Below, piece by piece: positions 3,601-62,161 of a stretch of 64,000 bases of DNA. The notes beneath the pieces are model-generated. The model searched no databases and was not told where the DNA came from. It saw only the letters and a list, made by a program, of their open reading frames with translations. The stretch comes from a virus: positions 96,001 to 160,000 of IMG/VR virus record IMGVR_UViG_3300017917_003388. One strand, given 5' to 3'. A program made the position numbers and the translations under genes. Position 1 is the stretch's first letter, and each line of letters opens with the position of its first letter.

Positions 3601-3852
3601 ACCAGTATTATACGATGCAGTAAATGAATTAAAAGAAGATGTAGTTACAAATGAACCAGTGTCTATTATAGTACCTTCCCCTCGTGGACCTATAGGTCCT
3701 GTTAAAATTTGAACTACAGAAGTTAATGGTTGGGTAACATCAACAGTAGTACAACATTTATTATCAATAATAGTAATAGTTTTATTTACATCTACTAATA
3801 TTACTTGATTATTATCAGGAATAATCTGAGTTGGGCCTATACAATTTGACAT
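610..3852 (-). CDS. Ser/Thr-rich tail fibre/receptor-binding protein with a C-terminal YVTN/YncE-like beta-propeller
   Basis: Repeats DTGSFVTTSSFNSFT (x3), SSSYA/TASWA runs and xFxKGDGSxF modules; C-terminal KLYIANNAANTVSVID and NEVYVTS propeller blades. Confidence 0.7.
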   Translation of the reverse strand: MSNCIGPTQIIPDNNQVILVDVNKTITIIDNKCCTTVDVTQPLTSVVQILTGPIGPRGEGTIIDTGSFVTTSSFNSFTASYNTGSFTGSFSGSLLGIADTASYTPNAIITGSILSNIITFVKGDGSTFDLIISASSSGSSFDTGSLLVTASSNQNNILFTKGDGSQFSITVDTGSTFDTGSFVTTSSFNSFTGSYENFSSSLSNIYASKSELNVITASINNLSESLNLITSSFNLFTASYNTGSFTGSFNGDLFGTASWANNSLTASFVESSSYALSSSYNPNALVTASSNQNQITFLKGDGSQFSINLTISGSGSIIDTGSFVTTSSFNSFTSSYNTGSFTGSFIGELIGTSSWAFQSLTSSYTVSSSYAVSSSYVESSSYSLSSSYALSSSFSNTSSYALNGGVTQILAGPNILLSPINGLGQVTISSTGGEGGFNTATGSYGSFYDTTTQTNPVSNIPNSMSFNTTYITNGVSISGSTSPFNTYIKIQNAGIYNIQFSAQIDKTDGGSDDVVIWLRKNGIDLDNTATTLTLPTNNSKVVAAWNWFVNSAANDYYQIIWRSNDTSLRLLAESISPQHPGIPSIILTVNRIDQFLSNTGSFTGSFTGELIGTASWATNAATASYITASNVYGPFGSNSILSASYASQSLSSSYSLSSSYALSSSYTLSSSYALSSSFTQTASFYNEVDPIFTSRSSSLATTGSNRFNGNQIITGSLTVSGSGFTQNGGTGHVVTYNTSSGTFAYTASSAISNNIIPVTTFIKESYLGSTGTRNIEYVPSTGKLYIANNAANTVSVIDISTGQLLATVSIAGANKMKYIVSTNEVYVTSTSTASIFRINSSNSLNSSITVGVTANGVDILELSSTKIYITINAGSGRIMIINPSNGTVTGNITTNIPSFPHGMAWNQNSSSLQNGRIIVSANAGVFIVDPTTDSVTTTIVNPSSAINTGAICLYSQILDKYYIASQSNNSIVCLSIASSTTFSLDSIIYQAYNVISIGIDEINRYLFSCIITNASAGSGPVGVKIYQLGSVVPLITSLTGLVGGGSSVAGALSIDVINKEIYVVGFSAGTIGQAIRIKYS

Positions 3853-4232
3853 TATAATGTGACATTAGGGGATAATTTAACTTGACCTTCTAAAATTCTA
3901 GACACAAAACTACCAGATGAAATTTCTAAATCATATACTCCTGTATCAAAATCTAAAGCAGAAGAAGATACAGCTGATATATATATTCCTATTGAACCCG
4001 AAGTAGGTGGGGTAGTTCCATTTGAACCACTAAAATTAATTCCCGTTCCATCACTATCTAATGAACTACTCAAAGTAATATATACATCAGGAGAACCTAC
4101 GGATGGTCTAATTTGCATTTTACCACTATATCCTGTTAAATCTATAGGATTTGAATTTGAATCTTTATATTGGAGTTCTAAATTAAATGTTGCTCCTTGT
4201 TCTATAACAAATGAATATCTACCTGCTGACAT
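3852..4232 (-). CDS. Virion Ig-like adaptor protein (BppU-like)
   Basis: IEQGATF...PIDLTGY...MQIR...GVYDLEI...RILEG pattern typical of small tail/baseplate adaptors; translationally coupled to the fibre gene. Confidence 0.55.
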   Translation of the reverse strand: MSAGRYSFVIEQGATFNLELQYKDSNSNPIDLTGYSGKMQIRPSVGSPDVYITLSSSLDSDGTGINFSGSNGTTPPTSGSIGIYISAVSSSALDFDTGVYDLEISSGSFVSRILEGQVKLSPNVTL

Positions 4233-56047: not shown

Positions 56048-56090
56048 AATTTCATATTTATATTAAAATATATTTATTATAATTATTTAG

Positions 56091-56163
56091 TACCCAATGT
56101 AGGATTCGAACCTACAAAAACTTGTTCCTAAGACAAGTGTGTCTTCCTTTCCACCAATTGGGT
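56091..56163 (-). tRNA. tRNA-Leu(TAG), short variable loop
   Basis: Acceptor ACCCAAT/ATTGGGT; anticodon arm CTTGT-CTTAGGA-ACAAG; T loop TTCGAAT. Confidence 0.85.
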
Positions 56164-56168
56164 ATTAG

Positions 56169-56240
56169 TACACCGTATAGGACTCGAACCTATATTAAAA
56201 GTTCCGTAGACTTCCGTTCTTCCAATTGAACTAACAGTGC
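56169..56240 (-). tRNA. tRNA-Arg(ACG)
   Basis: Anticodon arm GAAGT-CTACGGA-ACTTT; full cloverleaf. Confidence 0.9.
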
Positions 56241-56245
56241 ATGTG

Positions 56246-56321
56246 GGTATTATGTGGGATTCGAACCCACGACCTCTAGTGCCACAAACTAGCGCTCTTA
56301 TCCATCTGAGCTAATAACACC
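56246..56321 (-). tRNA. tRNA-His(GTG)
   Basis: Anticodon arm CTAGT-TTGTGGC-ACTAG; encoded G-1 and C73. Confidence 0.92.
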
Positions 56322-56326
56322 ATGTG

Positions 56327-56399
56327 TTCTCTTTTGAGGATTCGAACCTACAATTACCTGAGCCAAAATCAAGTGTCCTGCCAATTAGACGAAAAGAGA
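56327..56399 (-). tRNA. tRNA-Gln(TTG)
   Basis: Anticodon arm CTTGA-TTTTGGC-TCAGG; T1-A72; bulged T stem. Confidence 0.85.
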
Positions 56400-56405
56400 G
56401 TATAG

Positions 56406-56479
56406 AGGTAAAGGTAAGATTCGAACTTACGTAATTTTGTTTTGCAAACAAATGCCTAAACCACTCAAGCCACTTTACC
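56406..56479 (-). tRNA. tRNA-Cys(GCA)
   Basis: Anticodon arm TTTGT-TTGCAAA-ACAAA; U73. Confidence 0.9.
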
Positions 56480-56483
56480 ATTG

Positions 56484-56557
56484 AGCTTCATATCGGGATC
56501 GAACCAATTCTATTTCTCATTACAAGTGAGATGCACCACCATTTATGCGTATGAAGC
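56484..56557 (-). tRNA. tRNA-Thr(TGT), atypical A8
   Basis: Anticodon arm TCTCA-CTTGTAA-TGAGA; acceptor GCTTCAT/ATGAAGC. Confidence 0.85.
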
Positions 56558-56562
56558 TTATG

Positions 56563-56638
56563 CGGCTTATACGGGATTTGAACCCGTGATCTTCTGCGTG
56601 ACAGGCAGACGGGGACGACCTGACTCCCCTAATAAGCC
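56563..56638 (-). tRNA. tRNA-Asp(GTC)
   Basis: Anticodon arm TCTGC-CTGTCAC-GCAGA; G73. Confidence 0.92.
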
Positions 56639-56643
56639 AATTG

Positions 56644-56717
56644 AGCAAGTAGACGGGATCGAACCGACTCTATTCCTGATTGGAAGTCAGGTGCACCACC
56701 ATTTATGCGTTACTTGC
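56644..56717 (-). tRNA. tRNA-Gly(TCC), atypical A8
   Basis: Anticodon arm CCTGA-CTTCCAA-TCAGG; U73. Confidence 0.85.
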
Positions 56718-56725
56718 TTTTTTAG

Positions 56726-56798
56726 TACCCCCTGTAGGAATCGAACCTACGACATCTTGTATGTAAAACAAGCACTCTTCCAGCTGAGCTAAAGGGGC
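56726..56798 (-). tRNA. tRNA-Val(TAC)
   Basis: Anticodon arm CTTGT-TTTACAT-ACAAG. Confidence 0.9.
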
Positions 56799-56803
56799 AT
56801 AAG

Positions 56804-56879
56804 TAAGGTAAGTGGGATTTGAACCCACATGCTCTTCATCCCAAATGAAGCGAGATAAGCCTGATTCCTCTATTACCTT
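56804..56879 (-). tRNA. tRNA-Pro(TGG)
   Basis: Anticodon arm CTTCA-TTTGGGA-TGAAG. Confidence 0.9.
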
Positions 56880-56885
56880 ATAATG

Positions 56886-56958
56886 TGGATCTCCTCGGAA
56901 TCGAACCGAGATTTCTTGTTCTTCAGACAAGCACATTGACCAACTCTGTCAAAGATCC
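56886..56958 (-). tRNA. tRNA-Phe(GAA)
   Basis: Anticodon arm CTTGT-CTGAAGA-ACAAG. Confidence 0.9.
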
Positions 56959-56964
56959 ATATAG

Positions 56965-57051
56965 TGGAAGTGGAGGGATTCGAACCCACAAGTTAACCCC
57001 AAAGGGACTAGTTTTACAGACTAGCGAACACACCAATTGTTCAACACTTCC
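56965..57051 (-). tRNA. tRNA-Tyr(GTA)
   Basis: Anticodon arm CTAGT-CTGTAAA-ACTAG; long variable arm. Confidence 0.9.
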
Positions 57052-57058
57052 ATTTTTG

Positions 57059-57129
57059 CGGTTCCCAAAGGAATCGAACCTTTGTATAAAGATTAACAGT
57101 CTTTTGTTCTACCATTGAACTAGGGAACC
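57059..57129 (-). tRNA. tRNA-Asn(GTT)
   Basis: Anticodon arm AAAGA-CTGTTAA-TCTTT; G73. Confidence 0.9.
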
Positions 57130-57573
57130 ATTATTTCTTATCTTTTCATGTTCTTCTCTATGACAATTAGAACATAATAAATCGCATTTATCTACTTCTA
57201 TTTTCATTTTCTCTAAAGAATATGAATTCGAAGATATTGAAAAATCTTTTTGTTTTGGATCTTGATGATGAAATTCTAAAGCAGATAAACACTTATTATA
57301 CCCACATTTAACACATTGGTTTCCTTTATATTCAAGTAATTTAATTTTAGTTCTTCTTTTCCAATTAATTACATTATTCACATTTTGTTTTTTTCTTTCT
57401 TGTTTAGATAATGGTATTCGTTTTTCTTTTTTTTCTTTTTTTACTAACTTTAAATTATGTTTATTTATATAATACCCAACTGTTCCTTTTTGAATAGATA
57501 ATAAATTACATATATCTTTAATTTTAATATTTTGTTTACGTAAATTTATTATTTGTTCTTCTATATTTTTCAT
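57109..57573 (-). CDS. HNH homing endonuclease inserted in the tRNA array
   Basis: N-terminal HTH-like segment; KGNQCVKCGY..C..ALEFHH.DP..KC.LLCSNCHREEH; the 3' end overlaps tRNA-Asn. Confidence 0.85.
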   Translation of the reverse strand: MKNIEEQIINLRKQNIKIKDICNLLSIQKGTVGYYINKHNLKLVKKEKKEKRIPLSKQERKKQNVNNVINWKRRTKIKLLEYKGNQCVKCGYNKCLSALEFHHQDPKQKDFSISSNSYSLEKMKIEVDKCDLLCSNCHREEHEKIRNNGSLVQW

Positions 57574-57642
57574 TTTATTATAAATATATTAGAACAATTT
57601 TAAATTCGATTACTCCTTTTATTTCATCATTTCAAAGATCTG

Positions 57643-57717
57643 TGATCCTGGAGGGACTCGAACCCACGTTTCCTACATTAAAAGTGTAGTGCCTACAACC
57701 AACTCGGCCACAGAATC
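57643..57717 (-). tRNA. tRNA-Lys(TTT)
   Basis: Anticodon arm CTACA-CTTTTAA-TGTAG. Confidence 0.9.
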
Positions 57718-57723
57718 ATTATG

Positions 57724-57797
57724 TAGTCAAAGTAGGACTTGAACCTACGACCTCTTGCTTATCAGACAAGCGCTCTAACCAACTGAGCTATATGACT
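57724..57797 (-). tRNA. tRNA-Ile(GAT)
   Basis: Anticodon arm CTTGT-CTGATAA-GCAAG. Confidence 0.92.
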
Positions 57798-57845
57798 ATG
57801 TATGGGTTTTATTTTATGTAGAAACCCAAACTCGTAAACTACATT

Positions 57846-57918
57846 TGGTGGAGCATGTGGGAATCGAACCCAAATAAATTGTTTGCAAAACAATCCGCCT
57901 GCCTTCGGCATCACCCCC
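57846..57918 (-). tRNA. tRNA-Ala(TGC), irregular acceptor/T stems, encoded CCA
   Basis: Anticodon arm ATTGT-TTTGCAA-ACAAT; G3-U70 pair present. Confidence 0.75.
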
Positions 57919-57924
57919 ATATTG

Positions 57925-58009
57925 CGGAGAGTAAAGGATTCGAACCTTTGGACCAAATTAACGATCACAGTTTAGCAAACTGCTGCAATAACCACTCTGC
58001 CAACTCTCC
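57925..58009 (-). tRNA. tRNA-Ser(GCT)
   Basis: Anticodon arm GCAGT-TTGCTAA-ACTGT; long variable arm; G73. Confidence 0.9.
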
Positions 58010-58015
58010 ATTTTG

Positions 58016-58102
58016 CGGAAGCGAAGGGAATCGAACCCCCAAGTCAGGTTTCCCCGACCAACTGTTTTCAAGACAGCCCCCTCGTCCATTCGGACCACTT
58101 CC
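58016..58102 (-). tRNA. tRNA-Ser(TGA)
   Basis: Anticodon arm GCTGT-CTTGAAA-ACAGT; long variable arm. Confidence 0.9.
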
Positions 58103-58109
58103 ATTTTAG

Positions 58110-58179
58110 CACGCCGTGTAGGAATTGAACCCACCCGCAAGAGTTTTGGAGGCTCTGCCGACCCATGTCTGAACGACGC
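58110..58179 (-). tRNA. tRNA-Trp(CCA), shortened D arm
   Basis: Anticodon arm AGAGC-CTCCAAA-ACTCT; acceptor GCGTCGT/ACGGCGT. Confidence 0.75.
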
Positions 58180-58210
58180 GTATTAAAAAATTTAACAATA
58201 AATTAAGAAC

Positions 58211-58399: not shown

Positions 58400-58434
58400 A
58401 TTATAAATATATGAAAAGGATTTTGAAATCCAAA
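58400..58434 (-). promoter_or_regulatory. Promoter for the leader and tRNA array
   Basis: TTTGGATTTC-N13-TATATTTATAAT, the same two-box layout as other promoters in the window. Confidence 0.7.
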
Positions 58435-58453
58435 TTCTTTTTCTTTTTTTTAG

Positions 58454-58575: not shown

Positions 58576-58600
58576 AAAAATAACCGACCTTGCTCGGTTA
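58576..58600 (-). terminator. Terminator after the TROVE gene
   Basis: Minus strand TAACCGAG-CAAG-GTCGGTTA-TTTTT. Confidence 0.65.
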
Positions 58601-58617: not shown

Positions 58618-60225
58618 TTAAATCTCTATACTTTCAATTTCTTGAATAAGAGCTTTATAACCTTTACAATTAGCTTCAATTAGGTTAAAGATTTTATCTG
58701 ACCAACCCGCAATCTGTAATACATTAAGTGATTTATCAAAAACTGATTTTCCACTAGTTTGTTTTATATCAACACAAATTGTATTACAATGTGGGTTTAC
58801 TTTTTTAAATTCTTTAAACAATGTTTGGAACGAACCTAATCCAGCATCAGATGAATGATCCCATCCTCCACTACCTCCAGAACCTATAACCATGTCTGAA
58901 AATATTACTAGATTATCAACTCTGGTTTTTTCTTTAATACATCTATCTAAAAATATATAAAGTCCATTTTCAGTTCCTCCACCACATTTCACTCCTTCAT
59001 TAAATGAATTTTTGTTAAATTCAAGTAAACCTTTTTTTCTATCAATTGGTATTTGGATTAATTTATCACCAAATAAACCCATATATACATTTCTTTGAGA
59101 CCATGTTAACATGGAACCAAATAAATTACCAATCATAGCTGTTGTGGTTTTAGAAAAAGCAGATACTTTAGAACTTCCACCACCATCTCCTCTAACAGAA
59201 CCAGAATGGTCAATTAGTACAGCTGTTGTACCTTCAAGAGCTGGGATATTTTCAACAGAAAATTCTAATGCTTGTTCAAGAGCTGCTAATACTTTATCAA
59301 CTAATGTATTTGTAGATGTAGATTCAAAAGTAATAGTTTTAGATCTAGATGAACCAGTATGTTTTAGTTTTTCGATTTCTTCATATGCTGTAGCAAATCT
59401 AAATGGTAATAATCTAGAATTGAGAACTTTATCTTTATTAGTCAAATGTGAAATAGCTTTATCAACTTGATCAGGAGCGGTTTCAATTATATTTCTAAGA
59501 TTTCTCAATAGATTCATAATTGGTGCATCACCATCCAAAACTTCAGTAATAGCTGCTGCTTTTACTTCGGTTACATCTAAATTTTGTGATTTAGCAACTT
59601 GACCTGCTTTGGATAATTGCTTTTCCATAATTTTGGTAGAATATAATCCTTCCAATGATTCACCAGCAATTAATCTTTTAAAAGCTTCAAAGTTTTGTTT
59701 GGTAGGTTTAGGATGTACTAAGTTTACCAAATCAACAAGTGAAATCTCTTTTTTAGACATTTTATATTTGTCAATAAGATAAGGATCCATAGATTCTAGT
59801 TTTTTCTTAAATCCACGTCTCATAGCATTAGCTATTTTTTTATTACCTTTTGAAAAATAATAAGCTAAAATCTCTGACATATCATCAGGACGAACTGATA
59901 CTTTCTTGTAAAAACGAGAAGCATATTCTTTTCCTGACAAACGTGGTGCTAATTCACCGGCTAAAAGATGAGTTACAGATCTCATATTAGCATCATTTCT
60001 CAAATATATAGCTAACTTAGCTACAAAGTCTTCACTTACCTTATTTGCAGCATTTTTAATACGATTAACCACTTCGTTTTCTGATTCATAATATGAACCT
60101 TGTAAGAATGTAGTTAAACATGTTGCTACAAGTTCTTCTTTTTCACTTAATTGATAAGCTTTTTCCCCCATTTCATTTACTGTTGTTGGAACAGTAGGAG
60201 TTTTAGATTTATTGTACTTTGACAT
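58618..60225 (-). CDS. rsr: Ro60/TROVE-domain RNA-binding protein with a C-terminal vWA domain (Rsr orthologue)
   Basis: VNEMGEKAY, FVAKLAIYLR...MRS, RPDDMSEILAY, Y.IDKY, DLVNLVHPKP, LLRNLRNI, SRLLPFRF..AY; MIDAS DHSGS...FSDM; GWSD. Confidence 0.93.
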   Translation of the reverse strand: MSKYNKSKTPTVPTTVNEMGEKAYQLSEKEELVATCLTTFLQGSYYESENEVVNRIKNAANKVSEDFVAKLAIYLRNDANMRSVTHLLAGELAPRLSGKEYASRFYKKVSVRPDDMSEILAYYFSKGNKKIANAMRRGFKKKLESMDPYLIDKYKMSKKEISLVDLVNLVHPKPTKQNFEAFKRLIAGESLEGLYSTKIMEKQLSKAGQVAKSQNLDVTEVKAAAITEVLDGDAPIMNLLRNLRNIIETAPDQVDKAISHLTNKDKVLNSRLLPFRFATAYEEIEKLKHTGSSRSKTITFESTSTNTLVDKVLAALEQALEFSVENIPALEGTTAVLIDHSGSVRGDGGGSSKVSAFSKTTTAMIGNLFGSMLTWSQRNVYMGLFGDKLIQIPIDRKKGLLEFNKNSFNEGVKCGGGTENGLYIFLDRCIKEKTRVDNLVIFSDMVIGSGGSGGWDHSSDAGLGSFQTLFKEFKKVNPHCNTICVDIKQTSGKSVFDKSLNVLQIAGWSDKIFNLIEANCKGYKALIQEIESIEI

Positions 60226-60264
60226 ATAACTTGGTTTTTAAAATTAATTAAACAAATTTAGAAT

Positions 60265-60310
60265 AAAAAAGGGAGAAACATTAATTATTTATTTAACTAA
60301 TATTTCTCCC
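60265..60310 (-). terminator. Intrinsic terminator between the ncRNA array and the Ro60 start codon
   Basis: Minus strand GGGAGAAATATTAGTT-AAAT-AAATAATTAATGTTTCTCCC-TTTTTT. Confidence 0.75.
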
Positions 60311-60323
60311 AATTTAAAATTAA

Positions 60324-60466
60324 TTGATAGAGAATATTATAAAAGAGGTTTGTGTTTGACTATTTGGAAGATAGTTGCTTTTACCATTTAGCTAATTTTT
60401 CCAATGCGGAAAAATATTGGATTCGAACCAATAATACGAAGTAACTCTTTTAATTACTACTATCAA
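60324..60466 (-). ncRNA. Y-like RNA 1: scaffold plus circularly permuted tRNA-Gly(TCC) mimic
   Basis: Scaffold GTAGTAAT-TAAAAGAG-TTACTTCG ... CTCTTTTA; insert order is T arm, loop-closed acceptor, D arm, anticodon arm ACTAT-CTTCCAA-ATAGT. Confidence 0.75.
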
Positions 60467-60475
60467 ATATTTTTA

Positions 60476-60562
60476 AACAAGAGAAAAAATAGAATTGAGT
60501 GTTTGTTTGATTAATTGTCCAAAAATTAGTATACGAAGTAACTCAACTCATTACTACTTGTT
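60476..60562 (-). ncRNA. Y-like RNA 2: scaffold plus a lone anticodon-like stem-loop (TGG)
   Basis: GTAGTAAT-GAGTTGAG-TTACTTCG ... CTCAATTC (compensatory stem); insert TAATT-TTTGGAC-AATTA. Confidence 0.7.
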
Positions 60563-60573
60563 AAAATCTTAAA

Positions 60574-60704
60574 AAAAATAAGAGAAAAGATAAAAGAGTA
60601 TATTTGAATTATCGACAGGGATCGAACCTGCAACTCATTTCTGAAAAGGAAATTGTGCTACCAATTGCACTACGAAGTAACTCTTTTGATTACTACTTAT
60701 TTTT
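60574..60704 (-). ncRNA. Y-like RNA 3: scaffold replaces the acceptor stem of a tRNA mimic (TTT loop)
   Basis: Insert TA-GTGC-AATTGGTA-GCAC-A-ATTTC-CTTTTCA-GAAAT-GAGTT-GCAGG-TTCGATC-CCTGT. Confidence 0.75.
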
Positions 60705-60728
60705 ATTTTTATTAATTGAATATATAAA

Positions 60729-60794
60729 TAAAGAACGTTTTTTTCTTAATTTCTTGATATTGTAAATATAAGATTAAAGATTTTGAAATCCTAA
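60729..60794 (-). promoter_or_regulatory. Promoter plus boxA-like element driving Y-like RNAs 3, 2 and 1
   Basis: TTAGGATTTC..TATATTTACAA followed by CGTTCTTTA; near-duplicate of 61186-61252. Confidence 0.65.
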
Positions 60795-60832
60795 TTTTAA
60801 TATCTTTTTTTAAAAAAAAATTTATTAACTAG

Positions 60833-60907
60833 TACTCCCGACGGGGCTCGAACCCGCAATTTCTACCTTGAAAGGGTAGCGGCTTAAACCAATTTGCCCA
60901 CAGGAGC
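60833..60907 (-). tRNA. tRNA-Glu(TTC)
   Basis: Anticodon arm CTACC-CTTTCAA-GGTAG. Confidence 0.9.
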
Positions 60908-60910
60908 GTA

Positions 60911-61078
60911 AAATTTAAAGAGAAACAAATAAAAGAGTATTTTTCTAAAAACGCGTGTCTACCAATTCCACCACCCCATAATTTGTTATCAATTAAGTTA
61001 TGGGGGAAGGATTCGAACCTCCAATGTACGTGCTCCTAATGCAAGCGAAGTAACTCTTTTGATTACTACTTTAAATTT
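60911..61078 (-). ncRNA. Y-like RNA 4: scaffold plus circularly permuted tRNA-Leu(TAG) mimic
   Basis: Insert order: anticodon arm CTTGC-ATTAGGA-GCACG, T arm GGAGG-TTCGAAT-CCTTC, loop-closed acceptor CCCCATAA/TTATGGGG, Leu-type D arm GTGGAATTGGTAGACAC. Confidence 0.75.
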
Positions 61079-61082
61079 AAAG

Positions 61083-61158
61083 TTGCGGGGGTGAGACTCG
61101 AACTCACGTTATTTGGCTTATGAGACCAAGCTGGCAACCACCTCCAGACTACCCCACA
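61083..61158 (-). tRNA. tRNA with CAT anticodon (Met, or lysidine-modified Ile2)
   Basis: Anticodon arm TTGGT-CTCATAA-GCCAA; acceptor TGTGGGG/CCCCGCA. Confidence 0.82.
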
Positions 61159-61185: not shown

Positions 61186-61252
61186 TTTTTAAAGAACGTA
61201 TTTTCTTTTTTTCTTTATTGTAAATATAGGATTAAAGATCTTGTAATCCTAA
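61186..61252 (-). promoter_or_regulatory. Promoter plus boxA-like element for the tRNA(CAT)/Y4/tRNA-Glu unit
   Basis: TAGGATTACA..TATATTTACAA followed by CGTTCTTTAAAAA. Confidence 0.65.
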
Positions 61253-61587
61253 TTTAAATTTAACTTTCTTTTATAATATACATATATATTTTGTCGATAT
61301 GAAGAATTTTATTTTTTAGTATTGGAGCGAGATACATATGTTATATCAAAGTTGGTATTTTGAAAAAACATATTAATAATTTGAGATATATAATTATATA
61401 TTGGTCGGGTTGAGAGGGGTGTATAAGATCTGAAAATATATCCAAGTCCCTGTCCCTGCCCCCAGCCCGCCGTATGGACCCCAGCATGCGTGGTAGCATA
61501 TACCCATACCCATACGCACGTATGCATATATGCACCAGAAGAGATATGTCTTGTTTTTTACTTCATTCCTTAAAATTTACATTCGAC

Positions 61588-61815: not shown

Positions 61816-61868
61816 GGGTTGTTTTTTTATTTCGTTGATGTGAATATAAAACGTACCAACTTGTAATC

Positions 61869-62105
61869 CTAGCGTCTACGTTTTTTATTACATGTACGCC
61901 CGATGTTTACTACCTTCCATCCATGATGGCTCGAATAGTGTTTCTTTTGACGGCGTTTGCTTTTACGCTTGGTTTTATAATGTGGTGGGCCTGGACACGG
62001 ACGAACAGTATATTCAGTATTAACTGAATTAAAATCCATAGTGGTGTTTGCTTCAACATTACCACCCATGATTGCGATCATAATGATCAAAATGTATTTT
62101 TTCAT
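61869..62105 (-). CDS. Small secreted basic protein
   Basis: Signal peptide (..VEA) and a Lys/Arg-rich C-terminus. Confidence 0.55.
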   Translation of the reverse strand: MKKYILIIMIAIMGGNVEANTTMDFNSVNTEYTVRPCPGPPHYKTKRKSKRRQKKHYSSHHGWKVVNIGRTCNKKRRR

Positions 62106-62161
62106 AACCGTTTTATTTGTTGATGTGAATATAAAACATACAAACGTGTAGTCCTAATGTG

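What the first reader, a model, noticed from the sequence alone, without database searches (positions are those of the whole stretch)
58618..61078. Phage Ro60 with four Y-like RNAs, each showing a differently permuted tRNA mimic on one conserved scaffold
Seen: four minus-strand elements upstream of a TROVE/vWA gene share an outer stem with a conserved single-T bulge (AG-T-AG / CT-CT), the invariant motifs GTAGTAAT and TTACTTCG, and an 8-bp inner helix. That helix covaries: NAAAAGAG/CTCTTTTA in three copies, GAGTTGAG/CTCAATTC in the fourth. The cargo differs in each copy: a tRNA opened at the variable loop (TCC), an anticodon stem-loop alone (TGG), a tRNA whose acceptor is replaced by the scaffold (TTT), and a tRNA opened at the D/anticodon junction (TAG). 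None has a free acceptor 3' end, so none can be aminoacylated as it stands. Known: bacterial Ro60 (Rsr) binds Y RNAs encoded next to it, and YrlA-type RNAs mimic tRNA D, T and acceptor arms but have the Ro-binding stem in place of the anticodon arm. Inference: these keep the anticodon loop and lack the YrlA GNCGAA(N)G motif on the transcribed strand, so they look like a distinct modular Y RNA class. Ro60-stabilised anticodon decoys against host anticodon nucleases (PrrC/RloC/VapC/PARIS-type), or tethers for tRNA repair or decay enzymes, would fit.
Basis: partly seen in the sequence, partly recalled or inferred. Interest (0 to 1): 0.96.

Follow-up and report, generated by a model that had tools for sequence, protein, structure and literature searches.

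The report
Phage Ro60 partner RNAs with tRNA inserts
Four small RNA genes in front of a phage Ro60 gene share one conserved, base-paired "handle" and carry different tRNA-shaped inserts. The same handle lies beside Ro60 genes in many other phages and bacteria, so these are very probably an uncatalogued, diverged branch of the known Ro60-binding Y RNAs (YrlA type), not a wholly new system.

Summary
Four minus-strand elements (60911-61078, 60574-60704, 60476-60562, 60324-60466) lie upstream of a TROVE/vWA Ro60 gene (58618-60225) in a complete 174.7-kb phage.

All four share one scaffold:
- an outer stem with a bulged U
- an irregular internal loop
- a 8-9 bp inner helix that covaries
- the motif (U)UACUUCG
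- an A/C-rich 3' linker

The cargoes are as described: permuted tRNA-Leu(UAG)-like, acceptor-less tRNA(UUU)-like, a lone anticodon hairpin (UGG), and a tRNA-Gly(UCC) opened at the variable loop.

The scaffold is a real RNA family. I found it in at least 15 other Ro60-encoding phages and in 60 of 80 bacterial or MAG Ro60 loci, always on the Ro60 strand, including Ro60-RtcB repair operons. Covariation is strong.

Rfam YrlA does not match the window elements. It does give sub-threshold hits on relatives that carry T arm-acceptor-D arm cargo, and the UUACUUCG loop aligns with YrlA's CGAA loop.

Verdict: a new variant of Ro60 Y RNAs (a sister of YrlA/YrlB) with an extra bulged stem and exchangeable cargo. 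Ro60 binding and any decoy function remain untested.

Earlier notes of this scan describe what sounds like the same kind of handle in one other phage, and a different ACAGCAA handle in many others.

The parts
58618..60225 (-). Ro60 (TROVE + vWA) gene, 535 aa
   Evidence: Pfam TROVE 54.9 bits. Nearest solved structure is the Thermus phage phiLo Ro60, 9KOP/9L5Y, E 3e-17. The vWA MIDAS residues D339, S341, S343, T418 and D444 are invariant in 12 phage Ro60s. It is 50-71% identical to Ro60 of crAss-like and related gut phages.
60911..61078 (-). E1: scaffold with a permuted tRNA-Leu(UAG)-like cargo. Cargo order is anticodon arm, T arm, loop-closed acceptor, D arm. Cargo spans 60939-61045.
   Evidence: Parse. 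R1 model scores 38.9 bits, E 1e-7. ARAGORN calls Leu(tag) after re-joining. It sits 3 nt from tRNA-Met (61082-61158) and 3 nt from tRNA-Glu (60832-60907).
60574..60704 (-). E2: scaffold with D, anticodon (UUU, C37) and T arms in normal order. The acceptor is reduced to about 3 bp (UCG/CGA). Cargo spans 60600-60672.
   Evidence: R1 52.2 bits. Rfam tRNA 41.2 bits over model positions 5-66 at 60612-60675. Parse.
60476..60562 (-). E3: scaffold with a lone anticodon-type hairpin (5-bp stem, loop UUUGGAC). Cargo spans 60501-60533.
   Evidence: R1 50.3 bits, E 7e-11. Parse. Hairpin classed as anticodon-like.
60324..60466 (-). E4: scaffold with a complete tRNA-Gly(UCC) opened at the variable loop. Cargo order is T arm, loop-closed acceptor, D arm, anticodon arm. 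Cargo spans 60348-60436.
   Evidence: Parse. ARAGORN calls tRNA-Gly(tcc) on the circularly re-joined cargo. Rfam tRNA 32.6 bits at 60331-60401. The R1 search missed it (long insert), so this copy rests on the parser and the exact motifs.
60758..60801 (-). Promoter-like 44-nt repeat in front of E2-E3-E4
   Evidence: 91% identical to 61216-61259 (family D12). A sigma-70-like hexamer pair lies at 60787-60759. Function is inferred.
61216..61259 (-). Second copy of the promoter-like repeat, in front of tRNA-Met, E1 and tRNA-Glu
   Evidence: family D12.
60271..60310 (-). Terminator-like hairpin plus T run, between E4 and the Ro60 start codon
   Evidence: 17 pairs, tail TTTTTTATTC.
58581..58600 (-). 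Terminator-like hairpin directly after the Ro60 stop codon
61082..61158 (-). tRNA-Met flanking E1 on its 5' side
   Evidence: ARAGORN; Rfam tRNA 40.4 bits.
60832..60907 (-). tRNA-Glu flanking E1 on its 3' side
   Evidence: ARAGORN; Rfam tRNA 61.1 bits.

Best explanation
The four elements are genes for small non-coding RNAs that partner with the phage's Ro60 ring protein. That makes them Y RNAs of a diverged, uncatalogued branch related to bacterial YrlA/YrlB.

Proposed mechanism:
1. Transcription. Two promoter-like repeats drive two short units, tRNA-Met/E1/tRNA-Glu and E2-E3-E4/terminator.
2. Processing. tRNA-processing and other host RNases trim the transcripts to RNAs whose 5' and 3' ends pair into a long stem.
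3. The handle. It consists of the terminal stem with a single bulged pyrimidine and a U-U mismatch, an irregular internal loop, an 8-bp helix, and an asymmetric loop made of GUUACUUCG on the 5' side and an A/C-rich strand on the 3' side.
4. Ro60 binding. The handle is the part recognised by Ro60. The GUUACUUCG/A-rich loop is the counterpart of the CGAA loop that contacts Ro60 in YrlA and in phage phiLo Yrl2.
5. Cargo. The variable insert sticks out of the particle as a tRNA-shaped or anticodon-arm-shaped adaptor. It would bring tRNA-binding proteins or nucleases to Ro60, or hold them away from real tRNAs. Different cargoes would address different partners.

Shown here: the conserved structure, its covariation, its exclusive genomic linkage to Ro60 in phages and bacteria, and its relation to YrlA.

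Inferred only: transcription, RNA ends, Ro60 binding, and what the cargo recruits.
For: 1. Structure. On 41 elements aligned to model R1, 86.8% of cells pair against 45-53% when partners are slid. 18 of 20 pairs show compensatory changes, and 0 of 500 shuffles reach the observed values. The geometry is constant: 12-14 nt on the 5' side and 14-16 nt on the 3' side.

2. Linkage in phages. 12 of 17 scaffold-bearing records encode Ro60, including 6 of 6 complete ones. Among records with only chance matches to the pattern the figure is 1 of 27, and 0 of 10 complete ones. Elements lie on the Ro60 strand in all but one record, with 1-7 per record.

3. Linkage in bacteria. R1 gives 73 hits in 80 Ro60 loci, all on the Ro60 strand and mostly within 500 nt upstream. 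An independent parser gives 82 hits, 82 on that strand. In five whole genomes (21 Mb) the only four R1 hits at E<=0.01 lie at the Ro60 locus.

4. Position. In Clostridia the order is RNA, Ro60, RtcB. In Prosthecobacter it is RNA, Ro60, RlaP. This is the place YrlA/YrlB occupy in the Salmonella rsr-yrlBA-rtcBA operon (PMC4201824, PMC7790460).

5. Relation to YrlA. Family members with T-acceptor-D cargo score 33-50 bits with RF02553. The Infernal alignment puts GGCAG-UUACUU on GGCGA-AUGCUU. In 2-3 of 5 genomes the best genome-wide YrlA-like hit is the element next to Ro60.

6. Published precedent. Ro60 binds adjacent Y RNAs through a terminal bulged stem or CGAA loop, in bacteria and in a phage (PMC4201824, PMC12135203).
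Against: - There is no expression, end-mapping or binding data for any member.
- The CGAA motif, whose four bases each contribute to phiLo Ro60 binding (PMC12135203), is absent from the handle.
- A wobble-pair strand test was uninformative: 29 G-U against 30 A-C cells. The strand therefore rests on T-loop orientation, gene order and flanking tRNAs.
- Some elements lie 8-40 kb from Ro60 in large phages.
- Some cargoes have complete acceptor stems and are annotated as ordinary tRNAs in public records. Part of the family could therefore simply yield tRNAs.
- The alignment used for the covariation counts was fitted to the model.
Confidence: 0.8

Rival explanations
1. The scaffold is a leader-trailer platform for making unusual tRNAs. 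RNase P, 3' trimming and CCA addition would release tRNAs from the normal-order cargoes. From permuted cargoes they would generate two-piece tRNAs held together by the scaffold, which emerges where a long variable arm would sit. These tRNAs would then work in translation, and Ro60 would only chaperone or check them.
For: - Some cargoes have 6-7 bp acceptor stems and are called tRNAs by ARAGORN or annotated as such: L002 tRNA-Tyr and tRNA-Lys, L001 tRNA-Gln, and L261 and L266.
- E1 sits inside a tRNA operon.
- M. smegmatis YrlA is cleaved by RNase P and receives CCA in vivo (PMC4201824).
- Re-joined E4, L261:1448 and L262:58 are complete cloverleaves.
- Two relatives carry stop-codon anticodons, UUA and UCA.
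Against: - 17 of 35 phage elements and at least 16 of 82 bacterial ones have cargoes of 13-38 nt with no tRNA part.
- E2 and several relatives have no usable acceptor, and E3 is a bare hairpin.
- The four window anticodons duplicate canonical tRNAs of the same phage: Leu-tag, Lys-ttt, Pro-tgg and Gly-tcc.
- Bacterial copies are the YrlA-type domain without an anticodon arm.
- The acceptor of the L002 'tRNA-Lys' has only 4 Watson-Crick pairs of 7, as read.
Confidence: 0.08
2. This is the first reader's functional reading, a special case of the main explanation. The Ro60-bound RNAs would be decoys that present anticodon arms to host anticodon nucleases (PrrC, RloC, VapC or PARIS-type), or tethers for tRNA repair enzymes, and so protect phage translation.
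For: - Under my crude classifier, anticodon arms were detected in 9 of 35 phage elements (it missed E2's own arm, which has C37) against 4 of 82 bacterial ones.
- Cargo differs completely between phages whose Ro60s are about 70% identical, while the handle is kept. That is the pattern expected under conflict.
- Bacterial relatives sit in RtcB and RlaP repair operons.
Against: - No nuclease or repair partner was identified. The phage has no RtcB, Rnl2-type ligase or CCA enzyme.
- The anticodons are diverse with no clear bias toward known nuclease targets.
- E2's loop has C37 instead of a purine.
- The cargo arms are not copies of the phage's own tRNAs, and host tRNAs could not be compared.
Confidence: 0.1
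3. The similarity is a dispersed repeat, a terminator or attenuator, or a chance motif with no RNA function of its own.
For: The region is AT-rich and repeat-rich. A4-type helices such as AAAAGAG/CTCTTTT arise easily in AT-rich DNA.
Against: - Zero matches expected by chance.
- Compensatory changes in 18 of 20 pairs across phages and bacterial phyla with G+C from 22% to 61%.
- Strict strand and locus linkage to Ro60.
Confidence: 0.02

Closest known systems
YrlA / YrlB Y RNAs of bacterial and mycobacteriophage Ro60 (Rsr) loci (Rfam RF02553; Chen et al. 2014, PMC4201824)
   Same: - Encoded next to Ro60 on the same strand, several per locus, in the same slot of Ro60-RtcB repair operons.
- A closing helix is followed by a conserved single-stranded 5' motif ending in CUU, opposite an A-rich 3' strand.
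- Many members carry the T arm-loop-closed acceptor-D arm tRNA mimic, and short cargo-less forms resemble YrlB.
- The RF02553 model gives 33-50 bit sub-threshold hits on such members.
- The published M. smegmatis YrlB probe implies GGCGACUUC, which shares ACUUC with the handle here.
   Different: - No GNCGAA(N)G motif; GUUACUUCG stands in its place.
- An additional outer stem with a bulged U or C and a U-U mismatch, which is not part of the YrlA model.
- No window element reaches any YrlA score, even at E<=10.
- Cargo is exchangeable. It includes whole anticodon arms, normal-order tRNA bodies, and complete tRNAs permuted at the variable loop or at the D/anticodon junction.
- YrlA's P2 helix is absent.
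Thermus phage phiLo Ro60 with Yrl1/Yrl2 (PMC12135203; PDB 9KOP, 9L5Y)
   Same: A phage-encoded Ro60, the closest solved structure by sequence (E 3e-17), with small RNAs encoded just upstream that bind it and also PNPase.
   Different: Yrl1 and Yrl2 were picked by their CGAA motif and have no tRNA-like cargo described. Here the motif is UUACUUCG and the cargo is tRNA-derived.
Metazoan and Deinococcus Y RNAs (Rfam Y_RNA RF00019; Yrn1)
   Same: The 5' and 3' ends pair into a terminal stem with a single bulged pyrimidine on the 5' strand, followed by a short helix and an internal loop. This is the design of the Ro60-binding site (from Stein et al. 2005 as cited in PMC4201824). Yrn1 can be drawn with an anticodon-like arm.
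   Different: No sequence similarity to GGUCCGA and no Rfam hit. The loops carry tRNA modules rather than pyrimidine-rich loops.
Circularly permuted tRNA genes of Cyanidioschyzon and other algae (from my own knowledge, not read here)
   Same: The 3' half of the tRNA precedes the 5' half, and the acceptor ends are joined by a short intervening loop, as in E1, E4, L261:1448 and L262:58.
   Different: Those are matured through a bulge-helix-bulge splice and a circular intermediate into working tRNAs. Here the flanks form a Ro60-linked handle, no bulge-helix-bulge motif is seen, and the same handle also carries non-tRNA cargo.
The 'stem + ACAGCAA' handle RNAs next to DUF2828 Ro60-like genes, noted earlier in this scan (e1-3753718, e1-5595809 and others)
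   Same: Same concept: one conserved handle, exchangeable tRNA-piece cargo, arrays beside a Ro60-shaped protein in large phages.
   Different: A different handle. ACAGCAA occurs at chance level in this window and not in the elements. The protein partner also differs: a Pfam TROVE protein here, DUF2828 there.

Membership tests
YrlA (Rfam RF02553) | Reaches the family's gathering score (69 bits) with the curated covariance model | tested here: not met
   No YrlA match on E1-E4 even at E<=10. The best hit in the whole phage genome is 24 bits, elsewhere. Relatives in other phages and bacteria score 33-50 bits.
YrlA (Rfam RF02553) | GNCGAAN0-1G motif near the 5' end (Chen et al. 2014) | tested here: not met
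   The 5' halves read AGUAGUAAU-helix-UUACUUCG. CGAA occurs only inside T loops. Infernal aligns UUACUU to the AUGCUU that follows CGA in YrlA.
YrlA (Rfam RF02553) | tRNA-like domain: T arm, loop-closed acceptor stem, D arm, with the Ro-binding stem in place of the anticodon arm | tested here: inconclusive
   E1 and E4 have T arm, closed acceptor and D arm, but keep an anticodon arm as well. E2 has D, anticodon and T arms in normal order, and E3 only an anticodon-type hairpin.
YrlA (Rfam RF02553) | Encoded within a few kb of the Ro60 gene, on the same strand | tested here: met
   E4 ends 99 nt and E1 starts 853 nt upstream of the Ro60 start codon, on the same strand.
Y RNA in the functional sense (Ro60 ligand) | Binds Ro60 and depends on it for accumulation | not testable with these tools
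   Only genomic linkage is available.
Y RNA in the functional sense (Ro60 ligand) | 5' and 3' ends pair into a conserved terminal stem with a bulged nucleotide | tested here: met
   The outer stem is 7-10 bp plus a bulged U plus 2 bp in all four elements. It covaries across 41 elements, with the R:Y pair AU in 32, GC in 9 and unpaired in none. The bulge is U or C in bacteria.
Ro60 / TROVE protein | TROVE domain above Pfam cut-off plus a C-terminal vWA domain with a MIDAS motif | tested here: met
   PF05731 at 54.9 bits against a cut-off of 23. DxSxS...T...D is invariant in the alignment of 12 phage homologues. Homology to the phiLo Ro60 structure. No fold was predicted here.
tRNA (functional) | Contiguous cloverleaf with a free 7-bp acceptor stem and a 3' end that can carry CCA | tested here: not met
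   ARAGORN calls none of E1-E4. The acceptor is closed by a loop in E1 and E4, reduced to about 3 bp in E2, and absent in E3.

The most novel reading that the evidence does not exclude
Phage Ro60 particles would be programmable displays. One conserved handle loads Ro60 with interchangeable whole tRNAs (circularly permuted so that both ends are buried in the handle), tRNA bodies or bare anticodon arms. These cargoes would act as nuclease-resistant decoys or adaptors against host tRNA-targeting immunity. [quoted passage not shown] Either way this would be a new use of Ro60 in phage-host conflict.
Probability: 0.15. Interest if true: 0.9.

Novelty: new variant of a known kind. Interest (0 to 1): 0.62.

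Why it matters
Ro60 and its Y RNAs are conserved from bacteria to humans, yet the role of the tRNA-like part of bacterial Y RNAs is still unknown.

- **A natural set of cargo variants.** This family has one fixed handle but none, part, or all of a tRNA as cargo, in several permutations. That makes the question testable: which proteins does each cargo recruit to Ro60?
- **A gap in catalogues.** The usual RNA next to Ro60 in many phages and in Bacteroidota, Verrucomicrobiota, Clostridia and Chloroflexota is missed by Rfam.
- **An annotation problem.** Some scaffold-embedded tRNA mimics are currently annotated as ordinary phage tRNAs.
- **A clean binding comparison.** The handle's CGAA-to-UUAC difference offers a direct comparison for how Ro60 recognises its RNA.

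Tried and rejected
1. **Alternative fold.** GURGURA pairing with UUACUUC would compete with the outer stem. Rejected: the flanks of the outer stem covary freely. The U at the fifth position is often C in bacteria (GCAGCGA, GUAGCGA) while UUAC stays fixed, which would give a C-A mismatch.
2. **Strand test.** Counting G-U against A-C cells in paired columns gave 29 against 30, which is uninformative.
3. **Cargo as recent copies of the phage's own tRNAs.** Rejected: similarity is at T-loop level only, the best being 19 nt shared with tRNA-Met.
4. **Other Rfam families, ribozymes included.** Nothing but tRNA in 60300-61100 at E<=10.
5. **The 'ACAGCAA' handle of earlier scan notes.** At chance level in the window and absent from the elements.
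6. **Phage-encoded RNA repair partners.** No RtcB, RNA_ligase (Rnl2-type) or CCA/poly(A) polymerase family in the genome.
7. **MAFFT alignments of whole elements (A1-A3).** These misaligned the 3' halves, so I used a seed of eight short-cargo elements with constant geometry (A5).
8. **R1 search with filters off.** It lost the long-cargo elements E1 and E4, a technical limit on hit length. E4 was also missed with default filters.
9. **Collection scans with 14-base patterns.** Most returns were chance matches. Real members were separated by requiring both helices.
10. **Supplement of Chen et al. 2014.** Not held, so I could not check whether some published phage 'YrlA' sequences already carry UUACUUC.


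Full report
**1. What is there**

The window is part of a complete 174,694-bp phage genome with direct terminal repeats. On the minus strand, a 535-aa ORF (58618-60225) matches Pfam TROVE at 54.9 bits against a cut-off of 23. It is 50-71% identical to Ro60 genes of crAss-like and related gut phages such as cr111_1 and csAssE-Sib, the latter annotated 'Ro sixty-related protein'. Its nearest solved relative by sequence is the Ro60 of Thermus phage phiLo. The vWA MIDAS residues are invariant among 12 phage homologues.

Upstream, GTAGTAAT-N8-TTACTTCG occurs four times, with none expected by chance. It occurs nowhere else in the genome.

Each copy parses into the same architecture, read 5' to 3':
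- outer stem, 5' strand ending in G
- a bulged U
- AG
- UAAU(C)
- an 8-9 bp inner helix
- (U)UACUUCG
- the cargo
- the inner helix, 3' strand
- a 7-8 nt U-rich loop
- CU
- C plus the outer stem, 3' strand

The four elements are E1 60911-61078, E2 60574-60704, E3 60476-60562 and E4 60324-60466.

**2. The cargoes**

- **E4.** Its order is T arm, acceptor stem closed by a 5-nt loop, D arm, anticodon arm. Joined head to tail, ARAGORN calls it tRNA-Gly(tcc) in all 89 junction variants that gave a call, the untrimmed one included.
- **E2.** It matches the Rfam tRNA model at 41.2 bits over positions 5-66. UACUUCG sits exactly where the acceptor 5' strand would be, and only UCG/CGA can pair.
- **E3.** It is a 5-bp stem with the 7-nt loop UUUGGAC.
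- **E1.** It has an imperfect anticodon arm (UAG), a T arm, an acceptor closed by a 16-nt loop, and a tRNA-Leu-type D arm. Re-joined with the linkers trimmed it is called tRNA-Leu(tag), although other trimmings give other calls.

None is called a tRNA as it stands. The cargoes are not copies of the phage's 21 ordinary tRNAs, even though those tRNAs include the same four anticodons.

**3. Transcription units**

A 44-nt repeat, 91% identical between copies, precedes both groups (61216-61259 and 60758-60801).

- Unit 1 is tRNA-Met, E1 and tRNA-Glu, with 3-nt spacers. tRNA processing alone would leave E1 with nearly flush, paired ends.
- Unit 2 is E2, E3 and E4, followed by a terminator-like hairpin (60310-60271) before the Ro60 start codon. 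A second terminator follows Ro60.

These are consensus matches, not proof of function.

**4. The scaffold is a conserved RNA family**

csAssE-Sib has three homologous elements upstream of its Ro60, with different helix sequences but the same design. Two of them are annotated tRNA-Tyr and tRNA-Lys.

Pattern scans of IMG/VR, followed by a filter requiring both helices, found the scaffold in at least 15 further phage records. The geometry is constant: 12-14 nt between RG and UACUUCG, and 14-16 nt on the 3' side.

I built a covariance model (R1) from eight short-cargo elements. It recovered 41 elements in the phage loci. On that alignment:
- 86.8% of cells pair, against 45-53% when partners are slid
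- 18 of 20 pairs show compensatory changes
- no shuffle out of 500 reaches the observed values
- the R:Y pair next to the bulge is A-U in 32, G-C in 9, and never unpaired

The alignment was fitted to the model, which favours the structure. However, the helices were first found by an independent parser, and they differ freely between loci.

**5. Linkage to Ro60**

- Of 17 scaffold-bearing phage records, 12 encode Ro60, including all 6 that are at least 90% complete.
- Of 27 records that only matched the 14-base pattern by chance, 1 does, and none of the 10 complete ones.
- Elements number 1-7 per record and lie on the Ro60 strand in all but one record. Most are within 2 kb, though some are 8-40 kb away in very large phages.

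I then fetched 80 Ro60 loci from prokaryotic genomes and MAGs.
- R1 gave 73 hits, every one on the Ro60 strand and mostly just upstream.
- My parser gave 82 hits, all 82 on that strand.
- Together they cover 60 of the 80 loci.
- The taxa include Saprospiraceae, Chitinophagales, Verrucomicrobia (among them the isolate Prosthecobacter fluviatilis), Clostridia, Chloroflexota, Desulfobacterota and Patescibacteria.
- In bacteria the bulged base is U or C.

In five whole genomes (21 Mb) the only four R1 hits at E<=0.01 lie at the Ro60 locus.

In Clostridium sp. MSJ-8 and a Christensenella MAG the next gene is RtcB. In Prosthecobacter it is RlaP. These RNAs therefore occupy the slot that YrlA/YrlB hold in the Salmonella rsr-yrlBA-rtcBA operon (PMC4201824, PMC7790460). 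Bacillus phage G has three copies upstream of its TROVE gene gp540.

**6. Relation to YrlA**

- Rfam has no match to E1-E4 other than tRNA, even at E<=10.
- There is no YrlA above the cut-off in the phage genome, in 16 bacterial loci, or in five whole genomes.
- Even so, RF02553 gives 33-50 bit hits on family members whose cargo is T arm-closed acceptor-D arm.

The Xylella phage Usme region shows why. By eye it holds five elements of the design GG-U-GG UGUAG / helix / GGUUACUUC ... UGUUCC-CC. Infernal aligns the helix plus UUACUU to YrlA's P1 plus AUGCUU, that is GGCAG-UUACUU against GGCGA-AUGCUU.

I infer three correspondences:
- The inner helix corresponds to YrlA P1.
- The UUACUUCG / A-rich loop corresponds to the CGAA-containing internal loop (AUGCU / AAAACUUG) thought to contact Ro60.
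- The outer bulged stem is an addition that the YrlA model does not contain.

Two further points fit this. The published probe for M. smegmatis YrlB implies GGCGACUUC, which shares ACUUC. Actinophage 'YrlA-like' hits also contain GGUUACUUC, so some published phage YrlAs may already belong here. I could not check this, because the supplement is not held.

**7. Cargo across the family (crude classifier)**

| Cargo class | Bacterial/MAG loci (82) | Phage loci (35) |
|---|---|---|
| T before D (YrlA topology) | 29 | 5 (3 with an anticodon arm) |
| Normal order (D before T) | 1 | 8 |
| Short, no tRNA part | 16 | 17 |
| Short, lone anticodon hairpin | 2 | 1 |
| T arm only | 4 | 2 |
| Unclassified | 30 | 2 |

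Three independent phages carry complete tRNAs opened at the variable loop: E4 (UCC), L261:1448 (GCA) and L262:58 (UUA).

Phages whose Ro60 is about 70% identical to this one keep the handle almost unchanged but have entirely different cargoes. Anticodon-bearing and normal-order cargoes are thus mainly a phage elaboration.

**8. How it most likely works**

- **Shown:** a conserved two-helix handle with a bulged pyrimidine, exclusive linkage to Ro60, and a relation to YrlA.
- **Inferred from published Ro60 biology (PMC4201824, PMC12135203):** Ro60 binds the handle, and the cargo projects as an adaptor for tRNA-binding proteins or nucleases, following the tether/gate model.

I put this at 0.8. 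Whether the cargo serves as a decoy for anticodon nucleases, as a recruiter of repair or decay enzymes, or as the source of a two-piece tRNA after RNase P and CCA addition (a reaction shown for M. smegmatis YrlA) is open. The phage itself has no RtcB, Rnl2-type ligase or CCA enzyme.

**9. Novelty**

I found no paper describing this handle or these cargoes, and no Rfam family covers it. It is nevertheless a branch of a known kind, the YrlA/YrlB type of Ro60 Y RNA, so I class it as a new variant.

Earlier notes of this scan reported what sounds like the same sort of bulged two-helix handle beside Ro60 in another phage and in Clostridium repair operons (e1-5364018). I confirmed the Clostridium context independently. 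The scan also holds many cases of a different ACAGCAA handle beside DUF2828 proteins; that handle is absent here.

Noticed in passing
L002:3666-3738 and 3811-3884 (csAssE-Sib, OR575929); L001:2917-2992 (cr111_1, NC_055880): Features annotated as ordinary tRNA-Tyr, tRNA-Lys and tRNA-Gln in public phage records lie inside scaffold elements (handle on both sides). The 'tRNA-Lys' acceptor has only 4 Watson-Crick pairs of 7. Some phage tRNA counts probably include such mimics.
   Followed up: partly
L262:58-200 and L005:999-1130: Two scaffold cargoes in related phages carry anticodons complementary to stop codons. One is a permuted tRNA with UUA, called 'tRNA-Stop' by ARAGORN. The other is a normal-order tRNA-like body with a 7-bp acceptor and loop AUUCAAA (UCA). 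I did not test whether those phages recode stop codons.
   Followed up: no
L352:2592-2996 (Prosthecobacter fluviatilis KACC 12649): A GOLLD RNA match at 143.4 bits, just under the gathering score of 150. It lies between a tRNA array and the scaffold RNAs and Ro60-RlaP genes.
   Followed up: no
window 60758-60801, 61216-61259; weaker copies at 58416-58452, 61826-61871, 62111-62156: A recurring promoter-like motif (...AGGATTnCAAnATCTTTAATCnTATATTTACAATA on the minus strand) precedes the RNA units and several small ORFs. It is possibly a phage-specific promoter.
   Followed up: partly
L370:2340-2950 (Xylella phage Usme) and L368:1989-2491 (Bacillus phage G): There are five handle-bearing elements upstream of the Usme Ro60 gene (GC-rich version; model R1 missed them, and YrlA hits two at 40-50 bits). 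Three more lie upstream of phage G gp540. Neither set is annotated.
   Followed up: partly
L290 (Lachnospiraceae bacterium A4, KE159560.1 134329-143939): An isolate's 560-kb scaffold carries a Ro60 54% identical to this phage's, with a scaffold RNA upstream and a serine recombinase (Recombinase/DUF4368) downstream. This suggests carriage on a mobile element.
   Followed up: no
window 56090-58103 and 58110-58180: A dense array of 18 tRNA genes lies downstream of Ro60. A further weak tRNA-like match (tRNA-Sec model, 24.7 bits) abuts it at 58110-58180 and is not called by ARAGORN.
   Followed up: no
L302, L342, L352, L323, L329 (bacterial/MAG Ro60 loci): Many Ro60 loci assigned to Saprospiraceae and Verrucomicrobia carry arrays of 6-25 tRNA genes directly upstream, as phages do. 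Some may be prophages or phage contigs binned into MAGs.
   Followed up: no
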